A stretch of DNA of 64,000 bases, from the IMG/VR virus record IMGVR_UViG_3300045988_126355; one strand, written 5' to 3'. Positions within the stretch are counted from its first letter, which is position 1, and each line of letters starts with the position of its first letter. Shown in pieces: positions 1,071-25,470 of the stretch. A program made the position numbers and the translations under genes. The notes beneath the pieces are model-generated. The model ran no database searches. It saw only the letters and a list, made by a program, of their open reading frames with translations, and had not been told where the DNA came from. Source of the stretch: a virus.

Positions 1071-1567
1071 CAAGGCACGGAGAGCGCCGTTAAGCTCTCC
1101 AAAGGTTTGACGCGTACCGTTAAACGCGTCTGTACGCCGTTGTCAGTGGGTGCACGTCCCGCGTATGCTTTAGACTGAAGCTGACAAAATAGAGAGTTAT
1201 TTTACATATTGGAGATAGATATACCGTTGCCCTTGCCGTTGGCAATTAAAGGGCTGGTATTACTGCATGGACTATCCGAATAGGTATAGTTTATGTTAGG
1301 TATGTGATTACAGTTTGGAAAACATGCCGTTGTACGAGGTTTATCTCCAGATCGAAACGTGTCTTACTTGCTTACACGAAAAATAGAACAAGGCTGTAGA
1401 TTAAATTACAGGGTATAAACATGTAGCCTAACATGTAGGAACATGTTGTATCAAAACGCAAGGACACAATCGCCTTTATTTGTGGCTAAGTTGTGTAGCA
1501 GACGGAAAATATAATAACAACATAGTACGGGCCTGTACGCAAGAACTACGTACTAATTACGGGCTGT

Positions 1568-1631
1568 TGGTTGTAGCATAAAATCTCTATAGGATAGGAA
1601 TGCGCGTCCGGTTCGATTCCGGAGCAACCTC
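1568..1631 (+). ncRNA. tRNA-like element E1: 6-bp acceptor-like stem plus canonical T-arm (tccgg-TTCGATT-ccgga); too short (~64 nt) for a standard tRNA
   Basis: GGTTCGATTCC T-loop consensus at 1610-1620; 5' ggttgt (1569-1574) pairs with gcaacc (1624-1629). Lies at the 3' end of a 580-bp non-coding island, 23 nt before an ATG. Confidence 0.3.
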
Positions 1632-1654
1632 TAAATTATAAATAATATAATAGC

Positions 1655-1825
1655 ATGGAAAAGAAAGCAATGATCAACGCTTTAACTGAAGCGTTCAATA
1701 AATCTAAAAACAGTTGCGTAAAAATAACATTGCGTAACTATATCGAGACGGTGGAAACATTGAGCGAAAGTGAGTACAAAGAGGCGGAAGGTTTCTATAT
1801 TGAAGCACTTAACCGCTGGAGTTAA
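1655..1825 (+). CDS. small hypothetical protein (56 aa, MEKKAMINALTEAF...)
   Basis: ORF below the track threshold; translated by hand. ATG lies 23 nt after E1. Confidence 0.35.
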   Translation: MEKKAMINALTEAFNKSKNSCVKITLRNYIETVETLSESEYKEAEGFYIEALNRWS

Positions 1826-1847
1826 TCATAATTAAAGCATAAAGAAA

Positions 1848-2054
1848 ATGGAAAGGAAATTTAAATCTCATATGGTAGACGTCCGCGGTCTGTCCAGGAA
1901 AGAAGCTAAAGAAAAGCGGAAAAGAGCGTATCGGGAATTTATGTTGTATCGTGATCTCAAAGAAGCGTATCATGCCGATACAGGAAAGGACAAATGCAAG
2001 CGTAAAGTTCATACATCACGAACATACGTGAAAGAAAACATAAACAGTATTTAA
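1848..2054 (+). CDS. small basic hypothetical protein (68 aa)
   Basis: ORF; K/R-rich. Confidence 0.4.
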   Translation: MERKFKSHMVDVRGLSRKEAKEKRKRAYREFMLYRDLKEAYHADTGKDKCKRKVHTSRTYVKENINSI

Positions 2055-2060
2055 ACAGGA

Positions 2061-2093
2061 ATAGGGTTGTTCCGAATATCGGAGTAGCCCTAT
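2061..2093 (+). terminator. hairpin atagggt...(loop)...gccctat followed by ttt
   Basis: 8-bp stem immediately after the stop at 2054. Confidence 0.35.
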
Positions 2094-2155
2094 TTTCGTA
2101 TCCTACTCTTTCTATTTACGGGTAGGTATTCTGAGAGTGAACGGCGGACGTGGAC

Positions 2156-2250
2156 AAAATTGGTCTAAAACGAAACAAAAATAAGGCCATTCGGATATAA
2201 TGCCGGTATTTTGTCTATATCATGTCGTTAAAATTGGTCTAAAACGAAAC
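2156..2250. repeat. 21-bp direct repeat aaaattggtctaaaacgaaac at 2156-2176 and 2230-2250
   Basis: Perfect copies 74 bp apart in a non-coding region. Confidence 0.8.
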
Positions 2251-2253
2251 TTG

Positions 2254-2298
2254 AGGCGGTTTTCTGACCCAAAATAGGGTGTCGGATGCCGCCTTTTT
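2254..2298 (+). terminator. ggcgg...ccgcc stem followed by ttttt
   Basis: GC stem plus T-run; the loop is long (~29 nt) with an inner gaccc/gggtg pairing. Confidence 0.35.
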
Positions 2299-2772
2299 CA
2301 TCTCTATGGATTGAAAATCAGGCTTATTGTATTTTTCTTAAAAATAAGGTATGCTTGATTATCAATTAGTTAGGTTTTATAATACCCGTATTTTTGGACA
2401 TACTTATTGTAATTTTTTTATTTTATGTGGTGGTTTTTATTAGTATCTGACCTGTATTTTTTATCGGTTGGAGTAAGGTCTATGTTAGAGTACGGACCAG
2501 ATCAGTATAATATCGTGATGGTTTTTTGCTTTTCGTTTCTGGCTTTGATTATAGGTCTGAATATCTATCTTGATAGGAGGAGCAGGCGGTAGGGCGTGGG
2601 CTGAAGGCTCTCTATTCTCTCTATGGAATGATATTATCTCCAAATCCCCCATACTCCATGCCAGAGTATAAGCTTGTAGCGCTCTCCGTATGCCTGTAGT
2701 GAGGCCGAGAGCGCAGGTTCTATGCGGGAAGCCGGAGGATTAGCCGGGGTTGGAGAGGGGGAGAGGGAGGGC

Positions 2773-2924
2773 ACTCTCTTCCAACAAAATTCAACTCTCT
2801 TCCAACAAAATTCAATAGATCAGAGCTTTAAAACTCTCTTCCAACAAAATTCAATAGATCAGAGCTTTAAAACGGCATTTTGTAGTTTCTTCCAACAAAA
2901 TTAAGACTTACAGCGTTTTTAAAA
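2773..2924. repeat. Tandem array: 39-bp unit ctctcttccaacaaaattcaatagatcagagctttaaaa repeated twice (2795-2833, 2834-2872) flanked by partial copies
   Basis: Read directly. Preceded by a GA-rich tract ggggttggagagggggagagggaggg at 2745-2771. The 60-aa ORF here is only a read-through of the repeats. Confidence 0.85.
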
Positions 2925-3011
2925 CAGTATTCTGTAGGTAAGAGTTAAGGACTGCATTATGTGAGTATTTTTTTTTCAATCGGAATGTTTAACAATTAAA
3001 ACATAAACAAC

Positions 3012-3272
3012 ATGAACGTATATGACTTTGCGCCTGACTTAGATTTGAGTAAGGAGGTAGAAGGTTCTATTTTTGGGGTGAAAGGAATAGAAGGTAGTGA
3101 TGGTATAGTATATGCTAAGGTAGTTAGCTGTGAAGAAGTTAAGGATTACAGTTGTGATAGGTGTATTTTTTATGATTGTTGTAAAGATACATGTTTGTTA
3201 TCGCGTAGTGATAGTTGTATAGATGGAGATTGGATTTGTAGGTACGAACAGGCTGCCATAGAGGGGGAGTAG
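3012..3272 (+). CDS. small Cys-rich protein, member of a C-D-R-C-I-F paralog family (86 aa)
   Basis: Motif SCDRCIFYDCC; paralogs at 4853 and 26105. Confidence 0.5.
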   Translation: MNVYDFAPDLDLSKEVEGSIFGVKGIEGSDGIVYAKVVSCEEVKDYSCDRCIFYDCCKDTCLLSRSDSCIDGDWICRYEQAAIEGE

Positions 3273-3379
3273 GCGGCGCCTTGGGCTAAGGCCTGCGGTT
3301 GTAGGTGGAACGTAGGTCGGAGCAGAGCCGGAACAGTTTATTGTGGAACTAAAAAAAATAAAAAGGAGGAGATAGCGAT

Positions 3380-3460
3380 ATGAAAAAGGCATTTAAGATA
3401 TTTTCTATTATGTTTGTCATAGAAATAGTGCTGATAGCTATTTTAGATGCTATGGCGTAA
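3380..3460 (+). CDS. putative 26-aa hydrophobic micropeptide MKKAFKIFSIMFVIEIVLIAILDAMA
   Basis: Strong SD aaaaggaggag 8 nt upstream of the ATG; single TM-like span. Confidence 0.3.
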   Translation: MKKAFKIFSIMFVIEIVLIAILDAMA

Positions 3461-3502
3461 GTGAGAAAAATTTCTTCATTAATTTTCTTATGCTTTAGAC
3501 AG

Positions 3503-3532
3503 AATGCTCCCATCTGCGAAGATCGGAGCATT
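3503..3532 (+). terminator. perfect 8-bp hairpin aatgctcc-(14 nt)-ggagcatt followed by tgctttat
   Basis: Read directly; sits 8 nt upstream of tRNA-like element E2. Confidence 0.35.
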
Positions 3533-3539
3533 TGCTTTA

Positions 3540-3584
3540 TGGGATTCATGGTGCGGTAGGCTGGTTCGATTCCGGCGATCTCAC
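3540..3584 (+). ncRNA. tRNA-like mini-element E2: 7-bp acceptor-like stem (tgggatt/gatctca) plus T-arm gctgg-TTCGATT-ccggc; only 45 nt
   Basis: Canonical T-loop; homologous to E3 (shared ...ggttcgattcYggSc.atctcacaMaaca). Ends 23 nt before the ATG at 3608. Confidence 0.35.
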
Positions 3585-3607
3585 ACAACATTAAAATAGG
3601 GAAGAAC

Positions 3608-4012
3608 ATGTTAAAAGAAGAATTTGAAGAACTGATTAAAAGGGAGGTAAACGAAAATCAGTATAAAAACATAGAAACGGCATACGAGGCTTTGCCGGAG
3701 TATATGGATAAGATGTATTTAGCAAATGCTATTTCAAATGATATTGGGAAAGCTATTAATGTCTTATCGTTTTTAGGATCGTATATAAGCGAGTTAATGG
3801 GTTCGATAATAATCGAAAGGCAAAAGGTGGAATCATGTGCCTATGATTTAATAAATAAATCGCATGAGGAGGATGACTTGAAAGCAAGAGAGATTGCCGT
3901 GCGATTAATAGGAGAGAGGGAAACAGTGGCATACACAGTAAAAGAAGGGCTGCCATTGTGGGAACAAGATAAAAAGTTTATAATAGAATTAATGAAGGAG
4001 GAAAGAAAATGA
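3608..4012 (+). CDS. hypothetical protein (134 aa)
   Basis: ORF; stop overlaps the next start (ATGA). Confidence 0.5.
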   Translation: MLKEEFEELIKREVNENQYKNIETAYEALPEYMDKMYLANAISNDIGKAINVLSFLGSYISELMGSIIIERQKVESCAYDLINKSHEEDDLKAREIAVRLIGERETVAYTVKEGLPLWEQDKKFIIELMKEERK

Positions 4013-4350
4013 AAGATGGTATTACATTACATCCAGAACACGGATTGAATCCGTCTATAGAAGTCTGCATGATATGTGGCGAAGAGATGGGGATTGCTTT
4101 ATTAGGGAATAACATCAAAGGGCAGGCGCCGCATCATATATGCACGGGAGAAATATGTGACAATTGCAAAAAGATAATAGATGACGGAGGTTGTTTTATT
4201 ATCGAAGTCGAGGATGGATCAGATCAAAAGAATCCGTATCGTACAGGGAGATATTGCGCGATAAAGAAAGAAGCAGCAAAGAAAATACTTGGACAGGAAC
4301 ATAGTGTTGTGTACATGGAAAAGTCTGCATACAGTCAAATAATACCATAA
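4009..4350 (+). CDS. zinc-finger-like Cys-rich protein (113 aa)
   Basis: CMICGEE...HHICTGEICDNCKK...GGCF cysteine pattern. Confidence 0.5.
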   Translation: MKDGITLHPEHGLNPSIEVCMICGEEMGIALLGNNIKGQAPHHICTGEICDNCKKIIDDGGCFIIEVEDGSDQKNPYRTGRYCAIKKEAAKKILGQEHSVVYMEKSAYSQIIP

Positions 4351-4364
4351 AAATAAAGAAGGAT

Positions 4365-4679
4365 ATGTTTACAAAAGAAGAGCGATTATTCATATGGAAA
4401 AAGGTATATGAGATGATTGATAGGTTAGAGGATGGGGAATACATATGTGTTGCGTTAAGAAATGTAGTGTTTATGTATCTCAAAACACATAAAAATATAT
4501 ATGAGTTTCGTTCAGACGAAATGGTGAGAATATATTTCCCGGAATTGGAGGAGAAGATAAGTATGGCCACAGAACCAGAGGAAACAAGAACGTTTTATGG
4601 GTGGTTTGGTTGTCTTAGTCCAGAAACGAAGGAGGTGAGGCTGAATATTGTGAAAGATATTATAAAAGAATTAGAATAG
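4365..4679 (+). CDS. hypothetical protein (104 aa)
   Basis: ORF. Confidence 0.45.
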   Translation: MFTKEERLFIWKKVYEMIDRLEDGEYICVALRNVVFMYLKTHKNIYEFRSDEMVRIYFPELEEKISMATEPEETRTFYGWFGCLSPETKEVRLNIVKDIIKELE

Positions 4680-4725
4680 TATTTTTGTTAATCTATTTTA
4701 TTCATCAAATTAAGTTTTGGGTTTT

Positions 4726-4755
4726 GGCATGTCGGTTCGTGAGGATAGACATGCC
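4726..4755 (+). terminator. perfect 8-bp hairpin ggcatgtc-(14 nt)-gacatgcc followed by tatttctgtatc
   Basis: Same position relative to E3 as the 3503 hairpin is to E2. Confidence 0.35.
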
Positions 4756-4771
4756 TATTTCTGTATCATAG

Positions 4772-4832
4772 AGGGATGACGCGGCGTGCCGGTGCGTATG
4801 TGCCGGTCCTGGTTCGATTCTGGGCATCTCAC
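4772..4832 (+). ncRNA. tRNA-like element E3: acceptor-like stem gggatg/catctc plus T-arm cctgg-TTCGATT-ctggg; 61 nt
   Basis: Homolog of E2 with a 16-nt GC-rich insertion; compensatory change at the stem base (G-C here vs U-G in E2). Ends 20 nt before the ATG at 4853. Confidence 0.35.
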
Positions 4833-4852
4833 AAACAATAAAACATAATTAT

Positions 4853-5101
4853 ATGGAAGTAATAACATTCGGTCCGAACATGGATTTGTCTTCTAAAGAA
4901 GCAGGGGATGTATTTAGATTAAAATTGTATGGCATAGAGTATGAGGTCAAAGTAGTTAGTGACGACGAAGAGCCTGTTATGTTCTGCAAAGATTGTATAT
5001 TTTTTAACAACACAGGACGGTGTTCACTCTCAGAATCGCAAGACTGGTGCTTAAAAAAGCAAGTTGTTTACTGTAAAATAAGACATGATGGGGGAATTTA
5101 A
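4853..5101 (+). CDS. small Cys-rich protein, C-K-D-C-I-F paralog (82 aa)
   Basis: FCKDCIFFNNTGRC motif; similar N-terminus to 3012 (F.PD/NMDLS.KE.G..F). Confidence 0.5.
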   Translation: MEVITFGPNMDLSSKEAGDVFRLKLYGIEYEVKVVSDDEEPVMFCKDCIFFNNTGRCSLSESQDWCLKKQVVYCKIRHDGGI

Positions 5102-5282
5102 TGCGAAAGACGCCAATTTCTTATGGCGTCAAATGGGTAAGATTGACGGGGTGATAGAAACTCTGAACCGTACCGGAGGAGAAATGCCGACAATTATAGC
5201 CGGAGTGCTAAAAAGAATAAGAGACGATATAGATAAGTTTGTAGATAATAAAACGAAAGATTATGAGAATATACAAGAATGA
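5085..5282 (+). CDS. hypothetical protein (65 aa)
   Basis: ORF. Confidence 0.35.
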   Translation: MMGEFNAKDANFLWRQMGKIDGVIETLNRTGGEMPTIIAGVLKRIRDDIDKFVDNKTKDYENIQE

Positions 5283-5553: not shown

Positions 5554-5590
5554 GAGCGCCGGCCTGTGAAGGTATGCGCTCTTTGTATTT
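5554..5590 (+). terminator. gagcgc-(16 nt)-gcgctc hairpin plus tttgtattt
   Basis: Perfect 6-bp GC stem plus T-rich tail after the stop at 5496. Confidence 0.5.
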
Positions 5591-7596: not shown

Positions 7597-7877
7597 TGGG
7601 GTTGAGAGAATTTGTAGAACTTTTTGACAAGAATGAAGTAAAGAACTTGTTTAAAGCGTTAGATTTATGTATGGAATATGTAAGATTAGATTTACATGTG
7701 TTTAATGTAGGAGCTCATGTAACATGTTCATACAGTAATGATCTTGAATCGCTTTCACAGGCAGAAGGTTGTAATGTGAATATGATAATAGAGGTGCCTC
7801 GCTTATTCGAAGCGTTCATGGAATACGCTTCACCGGAAATGAAGTTGTATTATGAAAAACTAACAGAGACAGTATAA
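7593..7877 (+). CDS. hypothetical protein (94 aa)
   Basis: ORF, ATGA overlap. Confidence 0.4.
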   Translation: MMGLREFVELFDKNEVKNLFKALDLCMEYVRLDLHVFNVGAHVTCSYSNDLESLSQAEGCNVNMIIEVPRLFEAFMEYASPEMKLYYEKLTETV

Positions 7878-8761: not shown

Positions 8762-8798
8762 CGGCACTGGTCTGCGAAGATAGGTGCCGTTTTTTTTA
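8762..8798 (+). terminator. rho-independent terminator cggcac-(16 nt)-gtgccg plus tttttttt
   Basis: Perfect 6-bp GC stem followed by T8, just after the stop at 8740. Confidence 0.6.
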
Positions 8799-24374: not shown

Positions 24375-25470
24375 GATAGATATAAGAAGGATATTCAAAA
24401 CCTCCAAACAGGTTATGGAAGAGGCGTATGAGAATATCTTAAAATACAGGCGGGGAGAGCTTATCCCCGCTAAAACCGGATACGATTATATTGATGAGGC
24501 TTTGCTTGGAGGTATTTTCCCTCAGCATGCTATTGCCATAGGGGCTCGGCCATCTGTGGGTAAATCGTATGTGGCCCAAAAGATATTGGAAAATGTGATG
24601 AATCCGATGATCAACCCACAAGCAGAAGATTATTTTCTTGTCAATTGCGAGTTCGAAATGAATCCTCAAGATCTTCTTCTTCGCAGAATGAGTCAGGATA
24701 TGAAAAAACGGGCTCCTGAAATATTAAGAAGGCAAGATTCTAATACAGTAGAAGAGATGAGGATGTTTGAAATCCTTCAAGGTGAAATCAGAAATAATAT
24801 AATATACATCGACGCTCCGTGTACGGTAAAAGAGTTTGAGGCGGCTGTATATCATATAGCTACTAAGCATAAAGACAAACGTCTTATAATATTTAAAGTC
24901 GATCATATTGCTTTGATAAAAAGAATGGGATTGGATCCTAAGTCGGCTATAGATGATTTGGTGGCGGTTATGAACGAGGCTAAATTAGTATATAAAAACA
25001 TATTTTTCCTCATCATATCCCAATTCAACAGAGAGATAGAAGGAAGGATAAAAAGCCCTCAAGAGCAGCCTCCCCGTCTTTCTGACTTTTATCAGTCTGA
25101 TACGCTGGGGCAACTATGTACGTTAATGATAGGTTTGCATAATCCTCGCAGATACGGGCTGGACAAGTATATGATATTTGGGAAAGACTGGTATCAGACT
25201 CTTGACCGGTTTAAAACTGAAAACAAAACATCATTCAGGACAGCCGGACTGGTGTTTCATCATATACTGAAGGTAAGGCAAGTTAGTATGGAAGAGCTTA
25301 CTAATACAATCCACCCAGAGATCCTGCCGGGGCATGGATGGATGTACGGGGAGGGAGGGACGAAGTTCGTGAACCCCAACCAGCCGCCGACGCCGCCTAA
25401 GCTCTATACTGTGGAAGACGTTACAGACAATCAGGAACAAGAGACAAAAGAAGAACAGTCATTGTATTAA
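24343..25470 (+). CDS. DnaB-family replicative helicase (RecA-like C-terminal domain) (375 aa)
   Basis: GYDYIDEALLGGIFPQHAIAIGARPSVGKS (Walker A, DnaB pattern); LIIFKVDHIALI (Walker B-like); FLIISQFNRE (DnaB SQLNR motif). Confidence 0.7.
   Translation: MTKMHEEIANRIDIRRIFKTSKQVMEEAYENILKYRRGELIPAKTGYDYIDEALLGGIFPQHAIAIGARPSVGKSYVAQKILENVMNPMINPQAEDYFLVNCEFEMNPQDLLLRRMSQDMKKRAPEILRRQDSNTVEEMRMFEILQGEIRNNIIYIDAPCTVKEFEAAVYHIATKHKDKRLIIFKVDHIALIKRMGLDPKSAIDDLVAVMNEAKLVYKNIFFLIISQFNREIEGRIKSPQEQPPRLSDFYQSDTLGQLCTLMIGLHNPRRYGLDKYMIFGKDWYQTLDRFKTENKTSFRTAGLVFHHILKVRQVSMEELTNTIHPEILPGHGWMYGEGGTKFVNPNQPPTPPKLYTVEDVTDNQEQETKEEQSLY

What the first reader, a model, noticed from the sequence alone, without database searches (positions are those of the whole stretch)
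4726..4852. Second copy of the hairpin plus tRNA-like module (E3), with a compensatory stem change
E3 (4772-4832) matches E2 at ...ggttcgattcYggSc.atctcacaMaaca. It also follows a perfect 8-bp hairpin (4726-4755) and ends 20 nt before an ATG. The base pair closing the acceptor-like stem is G-C here and U-G in E2, while the internal segment carries a 16-nt GC-rich insertion. Two diverged copies that keep their pairing argue for a functional RNA rather than chance. The gene after E3 (4853) is a paralog of the gene at 3012, so whole modules may have duplicated.
Basis: seen in the sequence. Interest (0 to 1): 0.55.

Follow-up and report, generated by a model that had tools for sequence, protein, structure and literature searches.

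The report
Anticodon-less tRNA-like elements heading phage genes
An abundant human-gut phage carries three shrunken tRNA copies that keep only the acceptor stem and T arm, each just upstream of an early gene; natural variation shows their base pairing is under selection, so they most likely act as RNA-processing signals rather than dead tRNA genes.

Summary
E3 (4772-4832) and E2 (3540-3584) share GGTTCGATTCYGGSNATCTCACA, with 0 matches expected by chance. Each follows a hairpin and ends 20-24 nt before an ATG. A third copy, E1 (1569-1630), derives from the phage's own tRNA-Cys.

All three keep a canonical T arm stacked on a 6-7 bp acceptor stem. None has a D arm or an anticodon arm, and ARAGORN and Rfam call none of them.

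In about 200 related gut-phage contigs, 23 of 28 variants in the acceptor and T stems preserve pairing, against 33% expected (p=1.5e-7). Pair 49:65 is G-C, C-G or U-A in the three copies. Many pairs are G·U on the plus strand, so the structure is RNA in the gene sense.

The phage's real tRNAs use the same layout: hairpin, tRNA, about 18 nt, ATG.

Best reading, inferred and not shown: these are tRNA-derived punctuation signals, like plant-mitochondrial t-elements. Host RNase P and RNase Z would cut there and separate early gene cassettes. The "duplicated module" idea is only partly right. Genes 3012 and 4853 are paralogs, but 3012 has no such element.

Novelty: new variant of a known kind. Interest: moderate.

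The parts
4726..4755 (+). E3 upstream hairpin: 8-bp outer stem (4726-4733 / 4748-4755), a 1x1 G·A internal loop, a 4-bp inner stem (4735-4738 / 4743-4746) and a GUGA loop.
   Evidence: Sequence and MFE fold. RNAalifold recovers it. 98.7% of cells are paired across 53 variants, with two pairs changed on both sides.
4756..4771 (+). U-rich spacer (UAUUUCUGUAUCAUAG) between the hairpin and the tRNA-like element.
   Evidence: Sequence. Variable among relatives.
4772..4778 (+). E3 acceptor-like 5' strand, (A/G)GGGAUG. Positions 2-7 pair with 4825-4830. Position 1 faces A4831 as a mismatch.
   Evidence: The G run varies from 3 to 6 G among relatives.
4779..4807 (+). E3 linker in place of the D and anticodon arms: 9 nt (ACGCGGCGU) plus an optional hairpin, 4788-4807 (GCCGGUGC-GUAU-GUGCCGGU).
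   Evidence: 99% paired. A 14-nt deletion removes the hairpin in L039, L071 and L151. RNAalifold offers a slightly different register.
4808..4824 (+). E3 T arm: stem CCUGG/CUGGG, loop UUCGAUU. It has the canonical T-loop sequence and the closing G53-C61 pair.
   Evidence: 99.6% paired, and G-C at 4812:4820 is invariant. Recovered by RNAalifold.
4825..4832 (+). E3 acceptor-like 3' strand CAUCUCA plus C4832. There is no encoded CCA; the tail reads (A)CAA.
4833..4855 (+). A-rich leader without a Shine-Dalgarno sequence, then the ATG of the 82-aa gene (4853-5101).
   Evidence: The junction where relatives switch to a different downstream gene lies at AATAAAAC within this leader.
3503..3532 (+). 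E2 upstream hairpin with the same architecture: 8 bp, a C·C internal loop, 4 bp and a GCGA loop.
   Evidence: Three pairs show compensatory double changes, and 0 of 500 shuffles reach the observed covariation. Recovered by RNAalifold.
3540..3584 (+). E2 tRNA-like minihelix: acceptor UGGGAUU (3540-3546) / GAUCUCA (3577-3583), a 13-nt linker (3547-3559), T arm 3560-3576, and C3584. ATG at 3608.
   Evidence: (7/7 acceptor pairs). RNAalifold recovers the T arm but proposes an alternative hairpin in place of the acceptor stem.
1523..1555 (+). E1 upstream hairpin: UAGUACG/CGUACUA, 7 bp with a 19-nt loop.
   Evidence: Variants in the stem are wobble-compatible.
1569..1630 (+). E1 tRNA-like element: acceptor GGUUGU (1569-1574) / GCAACC (1624-1629), a linker containing the small hairpin 1583-1595, T arm 1607-1623, and U1630. 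ATG at 1655. It derives from a tRNA-Cys-like gene.
   Evidence: An alternative acceptor register (GGCUGUU, 1562-1568) cannot be excluded.

Best explanation
E3 is one of three tRNA-derived, anticodon-less "minihelix" RNA elements (E1, E2, E3) in the early, rightward-transcribed region of a roughly 150-kb human-gut phage. The closest GenBank record is csAssE-Sib, OR575929.

Each element keeps what tRNA-end-processing enzymes recognise: a 6-7 bp acceptor-type stem stacked on a 5-bp T stem, with a canonical UUCGAUU T loop. Each has lost the D and anticodon arms.

Shown: the RNA structure is real, is read from the + strand, and is under purifying selection for pairing.

Inferred mechanism: the elements work like the t-elements of plant mitochondria. 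Host RNase P would cut at the 5' edge. RNase Z, or another 3' tRNA-end nuclease, would cut just after the acceptor 3' strand. The upstream message would then end at the preceding stable hairpin. The downstream cassette mRNA would start about 20 nt before its ATG, on an A-rich leader. The phage's genuine tRNAs sit in the same layout, so the elements are best seen as tRNA genes that lost decoding but kept their punctuation role.

The confidence given is for the mechanism. Confidence that this is a selected, tRNA-derived RNA structure is about 0.85.
For: Anatomy:
- All three elements have a canonical T arm and acceptor pairing.
- They are not called as tRNA or tmRNA by ARAGORN or Rfam. Only relaxed ARAGORN gives poor cloverleaves.

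Selection on pairing:
- In the acceptor and T stems, 23 of 28 observed variants keep the pair, against 33% expected from the substitution spectrum at unpaired sites (p=1.5e-7). For all stems the count is 55 of 75 (p=1e-12).
- Pair-preserving variants are commoner in the population than disrupting ones (12% vs 3%, p=6e-5).
- Paired columns vary as often as unpaired ones (0.49 vs 0.43 variants per column), so the constraint is on pairing rather than on sequence.
- Across the three paralogs, the 12-bp helix is 91% paired against 77.5% in shuffles. The covariation score is 0.572 against 0.275 (0 of 500 shuffles reach it), and six pairs are changed on both sides. Slid registers reach at most 59% paired.
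- RNAalifold independently recovers the E3 acceptor stem and T arm.
- Many G·U pairs on the + strand mean the structure is RNA in the sense of the genes.

Shared layout with real tRNAs:
- In OR575929 the tRNA-Met/Gln/Arg/Cys array is preceded by a hairpin of the same architecture. It lacks encoded CCA and is followed 18 nt later by the next ATG.
- E1 aligns to that tRNA-Cys, including the UCUAAA trailer.

Prevalence: E3 is intact in about 95% of 81 loci retrieved through the neighbouring protein rather than through the motif.

Precedent: t-elements were defined by the same GGTTCRANYCC motif in non-canonical tRNA-like folds at mRNA ends cut by RNase P and RNase Z (PMC1920247).
Against: - No RNA-end data exist, and cleavage is entirely inferred.
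- Single-sequence folding is no better than shuffled sequence.
- The E3 T stem has two G·U pairs, and MFE folding does not predict it.
- Position 1:72 is mismatched in E3, and in E1 under the chosen register.
- For E2, RNAalifold prefers a competing hairpin (GCUUUAUG/CAUGGUGC) over the acceptor stem.
- All sampled relatives are at least about 90% identical. Most stem changes within a family are therefore one-sided wobble/Watson-Crick flips. The double-sided changes come mostly from comparing paralogs, and the E1 acceptor register was chosen by best fit (6/7 at one of 60 offsets is not significant alone).
- Many loci were retrieved with a pattern that fixed part of the 3' half.
- The element is dispensable. 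L133 lacks the hairpin, E3 and the following genes, and L154 has an 11-nt T-loop deletion.
- The upstream hairpins resemble intrinsic terminators. If they terminate efficiently, it is unclear how the element is transcribed. No promoter was recognised.
Confidence: 0.45

Rival explanations
1. Decaying pseudo-tRNAs without function. The elements would be leftovers of a once larger tRNA array, kept only because too little time has passed and because they sit in intergenic DNA that hitch-hikes with neighbouring genes.
For: - E1 is clearly a degraded tRNA-Cys paralog.
- The elements lie a few kb downstream of the real tRNA array, in the same orientation.
- They can be lost (L133) or damaged (L154) in natural genomes.
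- Nucleotide diversity in E3 (0.10) is higher than at third codon positions of the upstream gene (0.019).
Against: - Neutral decay would break pairs about two times in three. Observed variants preserve them 82% of the time in the acceptor and T stems, and disrupting variants are rare singletons.
- Three independent relics all lost the D and anticodon arms, yet all kept a perfect T loop, G53-C61 and acceptor pairing.
Confidence: 0.13
2. A trans-acting tRNA mimic. After excision and CCA addition, the 45-62 nt minihelices would accumulate as stable small RNAs and engage tRNA-binding factors. E2 and E3 might be alanine-accepting minihelices or mimics of the tmRNA tRNA-like domain. Alternatively they might be decoys for acceptor- or T-arm-directed defence nucleases, or ligands for the Ro60 homolog that OR575929 encodes.
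For: - The E2/E3 acceptor GGGAU/AUCUC carries G3·U70. In a sample of 120 phage tRNA-like genes with GGGAU...AUCYC, the U70 version was tRNA-Ala in 12 of 14 called genes. A further 17 uncalled genes included short RNAs resembling the tmRNA tRNA-like domain.
- Read with a 6-bp stem, the tails are A-CAA (E3) and A-CAC (E2), each one base from ACCA.
- Unrelated phage contigs carry comparable RNAs lacking an anticodon arm, some with an encoded CCA.
- The relative encodes Ro60 with Y-RNA-like units, and a polynucleotide kinase/phosphatase.
Against: - No CCA is encoded.
- The first pair is mismatched in E3.
- G3·U70 is replaced by A-U or G-C in several natural variants (L009, L023, L060).
- E1 has a Cys-type acceptor, not an Ala-type one.
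- The tmRNA hallmark motifs next to the acceptor and T arm are absent (recalled, not systematically tested). ARAGORN finds no tmRNA, and Rfam gives only a 9.8-bit local T-arm hit.
- The fixed position about 20 nt before an ATG points to a cis role.
Confidence: 0.12
3. A cis-acting 5'-UTR structure that is not cleaved. The folded element, possibly alternating with the competing hairpin seen for E2, would stabilise the downstream mRNA 5' end or tune translation of genes that lack a Shine-Dalgarno sequence.
For: - The distance to the ATG is constant at 20-26 nt, and the leaders are A-rich.
- The genes after E1 and E3 lack Shine-Dalgarno sequences, whereas genes internal to the operon have strong ones.
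- The invariant E2 linker CAUGGUG can pair with the upstream spacer.
- L336 shows a similar minihelix directly in front of a Shine-Dalgarno sequence and ATG in an unrelated phage.
Against: - Nothing explains why a generic UTR structure should keep an exact T loop and a 12-bp acceptor/T stack.
- The gene behind the element is interchangeable among relatives.
- The alternative E2 hairpin shows four disrupting variants and no compensating ones.
Confidence: 0.15
4. Primarily DNA-level recombination sites. Conserved repeats at cassette borders would promote gain, loss and shuffling of small early genes, like the promoter-early stem-loops of T4-type phages. The RNA fold would be incidental.
For: - Relatives switch downstream sequence immediately 3' of the elements. 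Gene 3608 after E2 and genes 4853-5262 after E3 are present or absent.
- L046 is an E2/E3 crossover that deletes everything between them.
- Spacing between the two copies is about 850 or about 1250 nt among contigs.
Against: - The frequent G·U pairs are strand-specific and would be C·A mismatches in the complementary strand or in DNA.
- Selection acts on pairing, not on sequence identity.
- The breakpoints lie in the A-rich tails (microhomology AATAAAAC / TTAAAA), not in the tRNA-like core.
- No recombinase domain was found in the nine neighbouring small ORFs tested.
- Recombination at any conserved intergenic repeat is expected as a by-product.
Confidence: 0.07
5. Protein-coding sequence. The GenBank relative annotates a 52-aa hypothetical protein (WOZ57404.1) across the hairpin and E3.
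For: A CDS is annotated at L001 2541-2699, and one search reports a 'hypothetical protein' under the match.
Against: - The window has no + strand ORF of at least 35 aa there.
- Relatives differ by 1-3 nt G-run indels, a 14-nt deletion and an 11-nt deletion inside it.
- The variation follows base pairing, not codons.
Confidence: 0.01

Closest known systems
t-elements of plant mitochondria (Forner et al. 2007, PMC1920247)
   Same: - Non-canonical tRNA-like folds recognised by the conserved pseudouridine-arm motif GGTTCRANYCC.
- They lie inside polycistronic transcripts next to mRNA 5' or 3' ends.
- They derive from tRNA genes and coexist with real tRNAs that serve the same punctuation role.
   Different: - Those are organellar, with cleavage by RNase P and RNase Z and mapped ends shown experimentally. 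Here nothing is mapped.
- The host would be a bacterium (probably Bacteroidota) and the carrier a phage.
- The phage elements are more reduced (45-62 nt, no D or anticodon arm) and are paired with an upstream hairpin.
MALAT1 mascRNA / MEN-beta tRNA-like 3'-end signals, and the tRNA punctuation model of animal mitochondria
   Same: A tRNA-like fold embedded in a long transcript recruits RNase P and RNase Z to define RNA ends.
   Different: Those are eukaryotic nuclear or mitochondrial systems with cloverleaf-like folds. There is no sequence relationship.
tmRNA tRNA-like domain and alanine minihelices (acceptor plus T arm with G3·U70)
   Same: E2 and E3 have an acceptor GGGAU/AUCUC with G3·U70 stacked on a T arm, and no anticodon arm. 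The same acceptor type occurs in phage tRNA-Ala genes and in short tmRNA-like RNAs of other phages.
   Different: - No encoded CCA.
- Mismatched or U-A first pair.
- No mRNA-like domain.
- No D-loop-analogue or GGAC motifs (recalled tmRNA features, not systematically tested).
- Not detected by ARAGORN tmRNA search or Rfam.
- G3·U70 is not invariant, and E1 is of Cys type.
YrlA-type bacterial and phage Y RNAs (Chen et al. 2014, PMC4201824)
   Same: These are tRNA-mimicking non-coding RNAs with a canonical T arm, found in phages. The relative OR575929 encodes Ro60 with three such units beside it.
   Different: - Y RNAs are encoded next to rsr.
- Their 5' and 3' ends form the Ro-binding stem.
- They keep a D arm and have a closed acceptor-like stem-loop.
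- E1-E3 lie about 70 kb from rsr, have an open acceptor and no D arm, and give no Rfam hit.
Promoter-early stem-loops (PeSLs) of T4-type phages, i.e. modular boundary sequences
   Same: Repeated intergenic hairpin modules head small early genes, and gene cassettes are shuffled, gained or lost at them.
   Different: PeSLs are promoter-plus-hairpin DNA/RNA modules with no tRNA mimicry. Here no promoter was found, and selection is on an RNA fold. This comparison rests on recalled knowledge and was not tested.

Membership tests
Canonical tRNA (Rfam RF00005 / ARAGORN) | Cloverleaf with a D arm and an anticodon arm (5 bp plus a 7-nt loop). | tested here: not met
   ARAGORN at default settings finds 0 genes in the window. 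Rfam gives nothing at gathering score, and no tRNA hit even at E<=10 in 1400-5000. The E2 linker is only 13 nt. The E3 insert hairpin has a 4-nt loop and the E1 hairpin a 5-nt loop. Relaxed ARAGORN gives only poor models with mismatches.
Canonical tRNA (Rfam RF00005 / ARAGORN) | T arm: 5-bp stem, 7-nt loop UUCRANY, closing G53-C61. | tested here: met
   UUCGAUU (rarely UUCGAAU) and an invariant G-C closing pair in all 29 unique cores.
Canonical tRNA (Rfam RF00005 / ARAGORN) | 7-bp acceptor stem directly stacked on the T stem. | tested here: inconclusive
   E2 has 7/7. E3 has 6/7, with a 1:72 mismatch. E1 has 6 bp in one of two possible registers.
t-element (tRNA-like mRNA processing signal) | GGTTCRANYCC pseudouridine-arm motif inside a non-canonical tRNA-like fold that is not a functional tRNA gene. 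| tested here: met
   E1 and E2 have GGTTCGATTCC exactly. E3 has GGTTCGATTCT, with C at that last position in several relatives. The definition is taken from PMC1920247.
t-element (tRNA-like mRNA processing signal) | Located in a polycistronic transcript at a gene boundary, co-oriented with the genes. | tested here: met
   All three are intergenic, on the + strand like the flanking ORFs, and 20-26 nt before an ATG. The G·U pattern shows + strand RNA. Transcription itself is not shown.
t-element (tRNA-like mRNA processing signal) | mRNA 5'/3' termini coincide with the element's ends, with cleavage by RNase P and RNase Z. | not testable with these tools
tmRNA / tmRNA tRNA-like domain | Alanine-type acceptor (G3·U70) ending in ACCA. 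| tested here: inconclusive
   G3·U70 is present in most E2/E3 variants but replaced in L009, L023 and L060. No CCA is encoded and the tails read CACA/CAAA. The phage's real tRNAs also lack CCA.
tmRNA / tmRNA tRNA-like domain | mRNA-like tag reading frame and pseudoknots; detection by tmRNA models. | tested here: not met
   The elements are 45-62 nt. ARAGORN finds no tmRNA. Rfam gives only a 17-nt local T-arm match to beta_tmRNA, 9.8 bits against a gathering score of 84.
YrlA-type Y RNA | Encoded adjacent to an rsr (Ro60) gene. | tested here: not met
   In OR575929, rsr is at 73.1-74.7 kb. The equivalents of E1-E3 are at 0.5 kb and 148.5-149.9 kb.
YrlA-type Y RNA | Ro-binding stem formed by the 5' and 3' ends; T and D arms; closed acceptor-like stem-loop (PMC4201824). 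| tested here: not met
   The acceptor strands are open-ended, there is no D arm, and the hairpin is a separate 5' neighbour. Rfam gives no hit.
Phage attP / 3' tRNA fragment from integration into a host tRNA gene | The 3' part is identical to a host tRNA or tmRNA gene, with an integrase nearby. | tested here: not met
   The 21-nt T-loop-plus-acceptor 3' strand of E2/E3 matches no tRNA in 185,579 species genomes. The only homolog (L207) is a 3.9-kb phage-like contig binned into a MAG. The 5' acceptor strand is also present. No recombinase domain was found in the nine nearby ORFs tested.

The most novel reading that the evidence does not exclude
The elements would be more than cut sites. Once excised and CCA-tailed by host enzymes, E2 and E3 would persist as alanine-type (G3·U70) minihelices. 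They would be phage-made mimics of the acceptor/T half of tRNA-Ala or tmRNA. Such mimics could be charged or bound by host factors (AlaRS, EF-Tu, SmpB, Ro60). Alternatively they could soak up defence nucleases or toxins that attack the tRNA acceptor end. They would then belong to a wider, undescribed class of phage RNAs lacking an anticodon arm, hinted at by the 60-85 nt RNAs resembling the tmRNA tRNA-like domain seen in unrelated viral contigs.
Probability: 0.08. Interest if true: 0.85.

Novelty: new variant of a known kind. Interest (0 to 1): 0.55.

Why it matters
**New RNA class for phages.** tRNA-like folds used as RNA-processing punctuation are established for mitochondria and a few nuclear long non-coding RNAs. 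My literature searches found no such report for bacteriophages.

**A simple gene-expression device.** If confirmed, this shows how a phage can borrow the host's universal tRNA-end nucleases to cut its early polycistronic RNA into units. It would also show how tRNA genes can outlive their decoding function.

**Annotation.** It would explain a class of conserved "non-coding gaps" in a very abundant human-gut phage lineage. It would also correct at least one spurious protein annotation. The three elements would be candidates for a new RNA family, since Rfam has none that matches.

**Engineering.** The elements mark the points where small early genes are gained and lost, which is useful for comparative and engineering work.

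**Evidence base.** The population-level evidence for selection on pairing is unusually clean for a structure this small.

Tried and rejected
- **Standard detectors.** ARAGORN at default settings and Rfam at gathering and E-value thresholds gave no tRNA, tmRNA or Y RNA call. ARAGORN in mitochondrial or relaxed modes gave unconvincing cloverleaves, including one that borrows the upstream hairpin.
- **Thermodynamics.** Single-sequence MFE z-scores are not significant, and MFE prefers other pairings for the E3 T arm and the E2 acceptor. The alternative E2 helix GUG-GGU/AUC-CAC is rejected because linker variants (CGGU, CAGC, CAAC, AAAU) break it without compensation.
- **Promoters.** The sigma-70 scan and the Bacteroidetes -33/-7 motif search (TTTG...TAnnTTTG) showed no enrichment, and no convincing promoter lies in front of any module.
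- **Host tRNA origin or attP.** No host tRNA carries the E2/E3 3' half.
- **Distant relatives.** GenBank phages hold only OR575929. A homolog search with the 179-aa neighbour protein listed only hits at least 87% identical among the best 120. The helicase points to Cellulophaga phages phi17:2 and phi4:1 at 34% identity. I scanned phi17:2 completely and found orphan T arms but no clear minihelix.
- **Full-length ancestors.** No intact tRNA sits at the E2 or E3 position in any fetched locus.
- **Covariance model.** I abandoned a model of E2 plus E3 because MAFFT put the two acceptor strands out of register. I used regex and structure scans instead.
- **Short-gap pattern scan.** Scanning viral contigs with GGGAT...GGTTCGAATC mostly picked up tRNA-Pro anticodon regions, an artefact.
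- **Literature.** A search for the name csAssE found nothing relevant.
- **Minus-strand apex match.** The match to the hairpin apex motif at 24678 on the minus strand has no flanking complementarity and is chance.
Full report
**1. Observation**

The finding is accurate at the stated coordinates.
- GGTTCGATTCYGGSNATCTCACA occurs at 3563-3585 and 4811-4833 on the + strand, and none of 100 shuffles gave a match.
- The exact T-loop 10-mer GGTTCGATTC occurs three times (1610, 3563, 4811). All are on the + strand within 3.2 kb, and it occurs nowhere else in 64 kb.
- 4726-4755 is a perfect 8-bp stem enclosing a 4-bp stem with a GUGA loop.
- E3 ends 20 nt before the ATG at 4853.
- The pair closing the acceptor-like stem is G-C in E3 and U·G in E2. 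The neighbouring T-stem pair is also swapped, C-G against G-C.
- The E3 linker is 16 nt longer than that of E2.
- The proteins at 3012 and 4853 are paralogs, with 35% identity and E=2e-8.

**2. Genome context**

The window is 93% identical to phage csAssE-Sib (OR575929, 151 kb, human gut), the only GenBank phage that matches. Its helicase is closest to that of Cellulophaga phages phi17:2 and phi4:1, at 34% identity.

In OR575929 a real tRNA array (Met, Gln, Arg, Cys) lies about 4.5 kb upstream of window position 1, in the same orientation. Three features of that array matter here:
- It is preceded by a hairpin: 6-bp outer stem, 1x1 internal loop, 4-bp inner stem, GUGA loop.
- It encodes no CCA.
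- It is followed 18 nt later by the ATG of the next gene.

**3. Anatomy**

The window holds three elements.

| Element | Span | Acceptor strands | Linker | T arm | Next ATG |
|---|---|---|---|---|---|
| E2 | 3540-3584 | UGGGAUU / GAUCUCA (7/7) | 13 nt | GCUGG-UUCGAUU-CCGGC | 3608 |
| E3 | 4772-4832 | (A/G)GGGAUG / CAUCUCA (6/7, position 1 mismatched) | 29 nt, containing the optional hairpin 4788-4807 | CCUGG-UUCGAUU-CUGGG | 4853 |
| E1 | 1569-1630 | GGUUGU / GCAACC | 32 nt, containing a 4-bp hairpin | UCCGG-UUCGAUU-CCGGA | 1655 |

None has a D arm or an anticodon arm. ARAGORN and Rfam call nothing. Relaxed ARAGORN gives only poor cloverleaves.

Each element follows a hairpin. The E2 and E3 hairpins share one architecture: 8 bp, a 1x1 internal loop, 4 bp and a GNRA loop.

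Hairpins with the same YCUGYGAAGR apex also occur at 5554-5581 and 8762-8789 without a tRNA-like element. The second of these is followed by a run of eight U, like an intrinsic terminator.

**4. Comparative evidence**

I retrieved loci in two ways. A protein-anchored retrieval through the gene at 4365, which does not depend on the motif, gave 80 more.

E3 is intact in about 95% of the protein-anchored loci. I aligned unique variants of each family: E3 53, E1 27, E2 40.

*Pairing within families.* Pairing is 98.8% in the E3 family and 99.3% in the E2 family. The E2 hairpin shows three pairs with true compensatory changes, and 0 of 500 shuffles reach the observed covariation.

*Substitution test.* Most stem changes are wobble/Watson-Crick flips, so I compared observed stem variants with the substitution spectrum at unpaired columns.

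| Stem class | Pair-preserving variants | p |
|---|---|---|
| All stems | 55 of 75 | 1e-12 |
| Acceptor + T stems | 23 of 28 | 1.5e-7 |
| Linker hairpins | 12 of 14 | 2e-4 |
| Upstream hairpins | 17 of 23 | 3e-5 |

About one third of variants would be expected to preserve pairing. Preserving variants are commoner in the population than disrupting ones (12% vs 3%, p=6e-5). Paired columns vary as often as unpaired ones (0.49 vs 0.43 variants per column). The constraint is therefore on pairing, not on sequence.

*Across paralogs.* The 12-bp acceptor-plus-T helix is 91% paired against 77.5% in shuffles. The covariation score is 0.572 against 0.275, with 0 of 500 shuffles reaching it. Six pairs are changed on both sides, and pair 49:65 is C-G, U·G, U-A or G-C. 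Slid registers reach at most 59% paired.

*Independent prediction.* RNAalifold recovers the E3 hairpin, acceptor stem and T arm on its own.

*Caveats.*
- The relatives are all close.
- The E1 acceptor register was chosen by best fit.
- Part of the 3' half was fixed by the search pattern.
- For E2, RNAalifold prefers a competing hairpin that shows no covariation and four disrupting variants.

*Strand.* The many G·U pairs on the + strand show that the structure is RNA in the sense of the genes.

**5. Origin**

E1 aligns with the phage's tRNA-Cys.
- Its 5' end reads GGCUGUUGG, against GGCUUGUUGG in the tRNA.
- It shares the T arm and the 3' end CAACCUCUAAA, against CAAGCCUCUAAA.
- Its acceptor equals the tRNA-Cys acceptor minus one base pair.

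E2 and E3 carry an alanine/tmRNA-type acceptor, GGGAU/AUCUC with G3·U70. I sampled 120 phage tRNA-like genes with that acceptor skeleton. Of the 14 U70 genes that ARAGORN called, 12 were tRNA-Ala. Another 17 U70 genes went uncalled, and several of these resemble the tmRNA tRNA-like domain.

No bacterial genome among 185,579 species has a tRNA with the E2/E3 3' half. No intact tRNA sits at these positions in any fetched relative.

**6. Cassette borders**

Relatives switch sequence immediately 3' of the elements.
- Gene 3608 after E2 is present or absent.
- Genes 4853-5262 after E3 are present or absent, through the microhomology AATAAAAC.
- L046 is an E2/E3 crossover.
- L133 lacks the hairpin, E3 and the genes up to 5616.
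- L154 has an 11-nt T-loop deletion.

The paralog at 3012 has no tRNA-like element in front of it, so "whole-module duplication" is not supported.

**7. Mechanism (inferred)**

What survives in all three relics is the minimal substrate of the tRNA end-processing enzymes: a 12-bp acceptor/T stack and a canonical T loop. That a minihelix of this kind suffices for RNase P, RNase Z and the CCA-adding enzyme is established knowledge of those enzymes, not something tested here. The position of the relics copies that of the phage's real tRNAs.

The most economical reading is that they are punctuation signals. RNase P would cut at the 5' edge, leaving the upstream mRNA to be trimmed back to its hairpin. 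A 3' tRNA nuclease would release the downstream mRNA about 20 nt before its ATG.

This matches the t-elements of plant mitochondria. Those were found by the same GGTTCRANYCC motif and shown to direct RNase P and RNase Z cleavage (PMC1920247).

I put about 0.85 on "selected tRNA-derived RNA structure" and about 0.45 on this mechanism.

**8. Rivals**

- Neutral pseudo-tRNA decay is contradicted by the substitution test.
- A trans-acting minihelix (alanine-type or tmRNA-like mimic, decoy or Ro60 ligand) is not excluded. It lacks a CCA and an invariant G3·U70.
- An uncleaved 5'-UTR stabiliser or regulator is possible. It does not explain the exact tRNA features.
- A DNA recombination site is a real side-effect, but the strand-specific G·U pattern argues against it as the primary function.
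- A protein-coding reading, as annotated in OR575929, is excluded by indels and by the absence of an ORF.

**9. Known families**

The elements fail the tests for four families: canonical tRNA, tmRNA, YrlA Y RNA and attP fragment. They meet the testable criteria for t-elements. The defining criterion, mapped cleavage, cannot be tested here.

My literature searches found no report of tRNA-like punctuation in phages.

**10. Verdict**

This is a real, selected, tRNA-derived RNA element family that Rfam does not match. I rate it a new variant of a known kind, of moderate interest. The decisive experiment is RNA-end mapping.

Noticed in passing
window 1569-1630 (hairpin 1523-1555; ATG 1655): A third tRNA-like element, E1. 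It is a decayed paralog of the phage's tRNA-Cys. Its T stem shows C-G to U-A compensation among relatives, and its small internal hairpin (1583-1595) covaries (C-G, U-A, U·G).
   Followed up: yes
window 3503-3532, 5554-5581, 8762-8789; L202 7020-7060 (minus strand): A recurring hairpin class: outer stem, small internal loop, 4-bp inner stem, GNRA loop, apex YCUGYGAAGR. The apex motif has 4 matches against 0.76 expected. The hairpins sit at gene-cassette borders with or without a tRNA-like element, and one precedes the real tRNA-Met array of OR575929. The one at 8762-8789 is followed by a run of eight U, like an intrinsic terminator.
   Followed up: partly
window 2157-2177 and 2230-2250; L025 around 7700-7760: Direct repeat aaaattggtctaaaacgaaac. 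In some relatives (L025, L042, L058) the same place reads TAGGAATGCGTATATTGGTTCAAATCGAAAC. That shares TAGGAATGCGT with E1, so it looks like a fourth, badly decayed T-arm relic.
   Followed up: no
window 2760-2940: Four direct copies of about CTCTTCCAACAAAATT(C/A)A, two of them inside a longer 40-nt repeat. They lie in a roughly 950-nt non-coding stretch ahead of the gene at 3012. They could be promoter, origin or iteron sequences.
   Followed up: no
L203 22560-23010 (OR575929 72.56-73.01 kb): Three tandem units starting (A)GUGGUGAUGG..UACUUCG lie just upstream of a Ro60 (Rsr) gene. Each unit contains a tRNA-like part. Two are annotated as tRNA-Tyr and tRNA-Lys, and the first holds a short minihelix (GGAAGGU...ACAGG-UUCGAGU-CCUGU-AUUUUUC). 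They look like YrlA-type Y RNAs, but Rfam does not call them as such. This locus lies outside the window.
   Followed up: partly
L001 2541-2699 (OR575929 148558-148716): The GenBank relative annotates a hypothetical protein (WOZ57404.1) across the E3 hairpin and tRNA-like element. Indels among relatives and the base-pair-driven variation indicate that this CDS is spurious.
   Followed up: yes
L209, L233, L249, L261, L295, L336, L346, L361 (unrelated IMG/VR contigs): RNAs of 60-85 nt with a tmRNA/tRNA-Ala acceptor (GGGGAUG...CAUCUCC), a T arm and one small hairpin, but no anticodon arm and no tag reading frame. Some encode ACCA. L336 sits directly in front of a Shine-Dalgarno sequence and ATG. 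L361 is a tRNA-Ala lacking only its anticodon arm. ARAGORN calls none of them. They may form an undescribed class of phage RNAs lacking an anticodon arm.
   Followed up: partly
L372 42678-42826 (Cellulophaga phage phi17:2, 142678-142826): A tRNA(CAU) gene is interrupted in its anticodon loop by a complete tRNA-Ile(GAU) gene. Deleting exactly the inner gene in silico yields a 76-nt tRNA that ARAGORN calls tRNA-Met. The outer 3' half is followed 26 nt later by the gp194 ATG. It is either a nested or split tRNA, or an insertion-killed gene.
   Followed up: partly
L371 41290-41440 (phi17:2, 91.29-91.44 kb): Two orphan canonical T arms (GAGAG-UUCGAUU-CUCUC and ACAGG-UUCGAUU-CCUGU) lie in the non-coding stretch after the 22-tRNA cluster. 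They are not part of any called tRNA, and no clear acceptor partner was found nearby.
   Followed up: partly
window 3534-3554: The invariant E2 linker CAUGGUG can pair with the upstream spacer GCUUUAUG. RNAalifold prefers this alternative, which is mutually exclusive with the acceptor stem. It could be a conformational switch or could mean nothing. It shows no covariation.
   Followed up: partly
L207 (NZ_DXLG01000138.1, 'Veillonella sp.' MAG): A 3.9-kb contig binned into a Veillonella MAG carries the E2 module nearly identical to the phage. This is probably a binning artefact and not host evidence.
   Followed up: no
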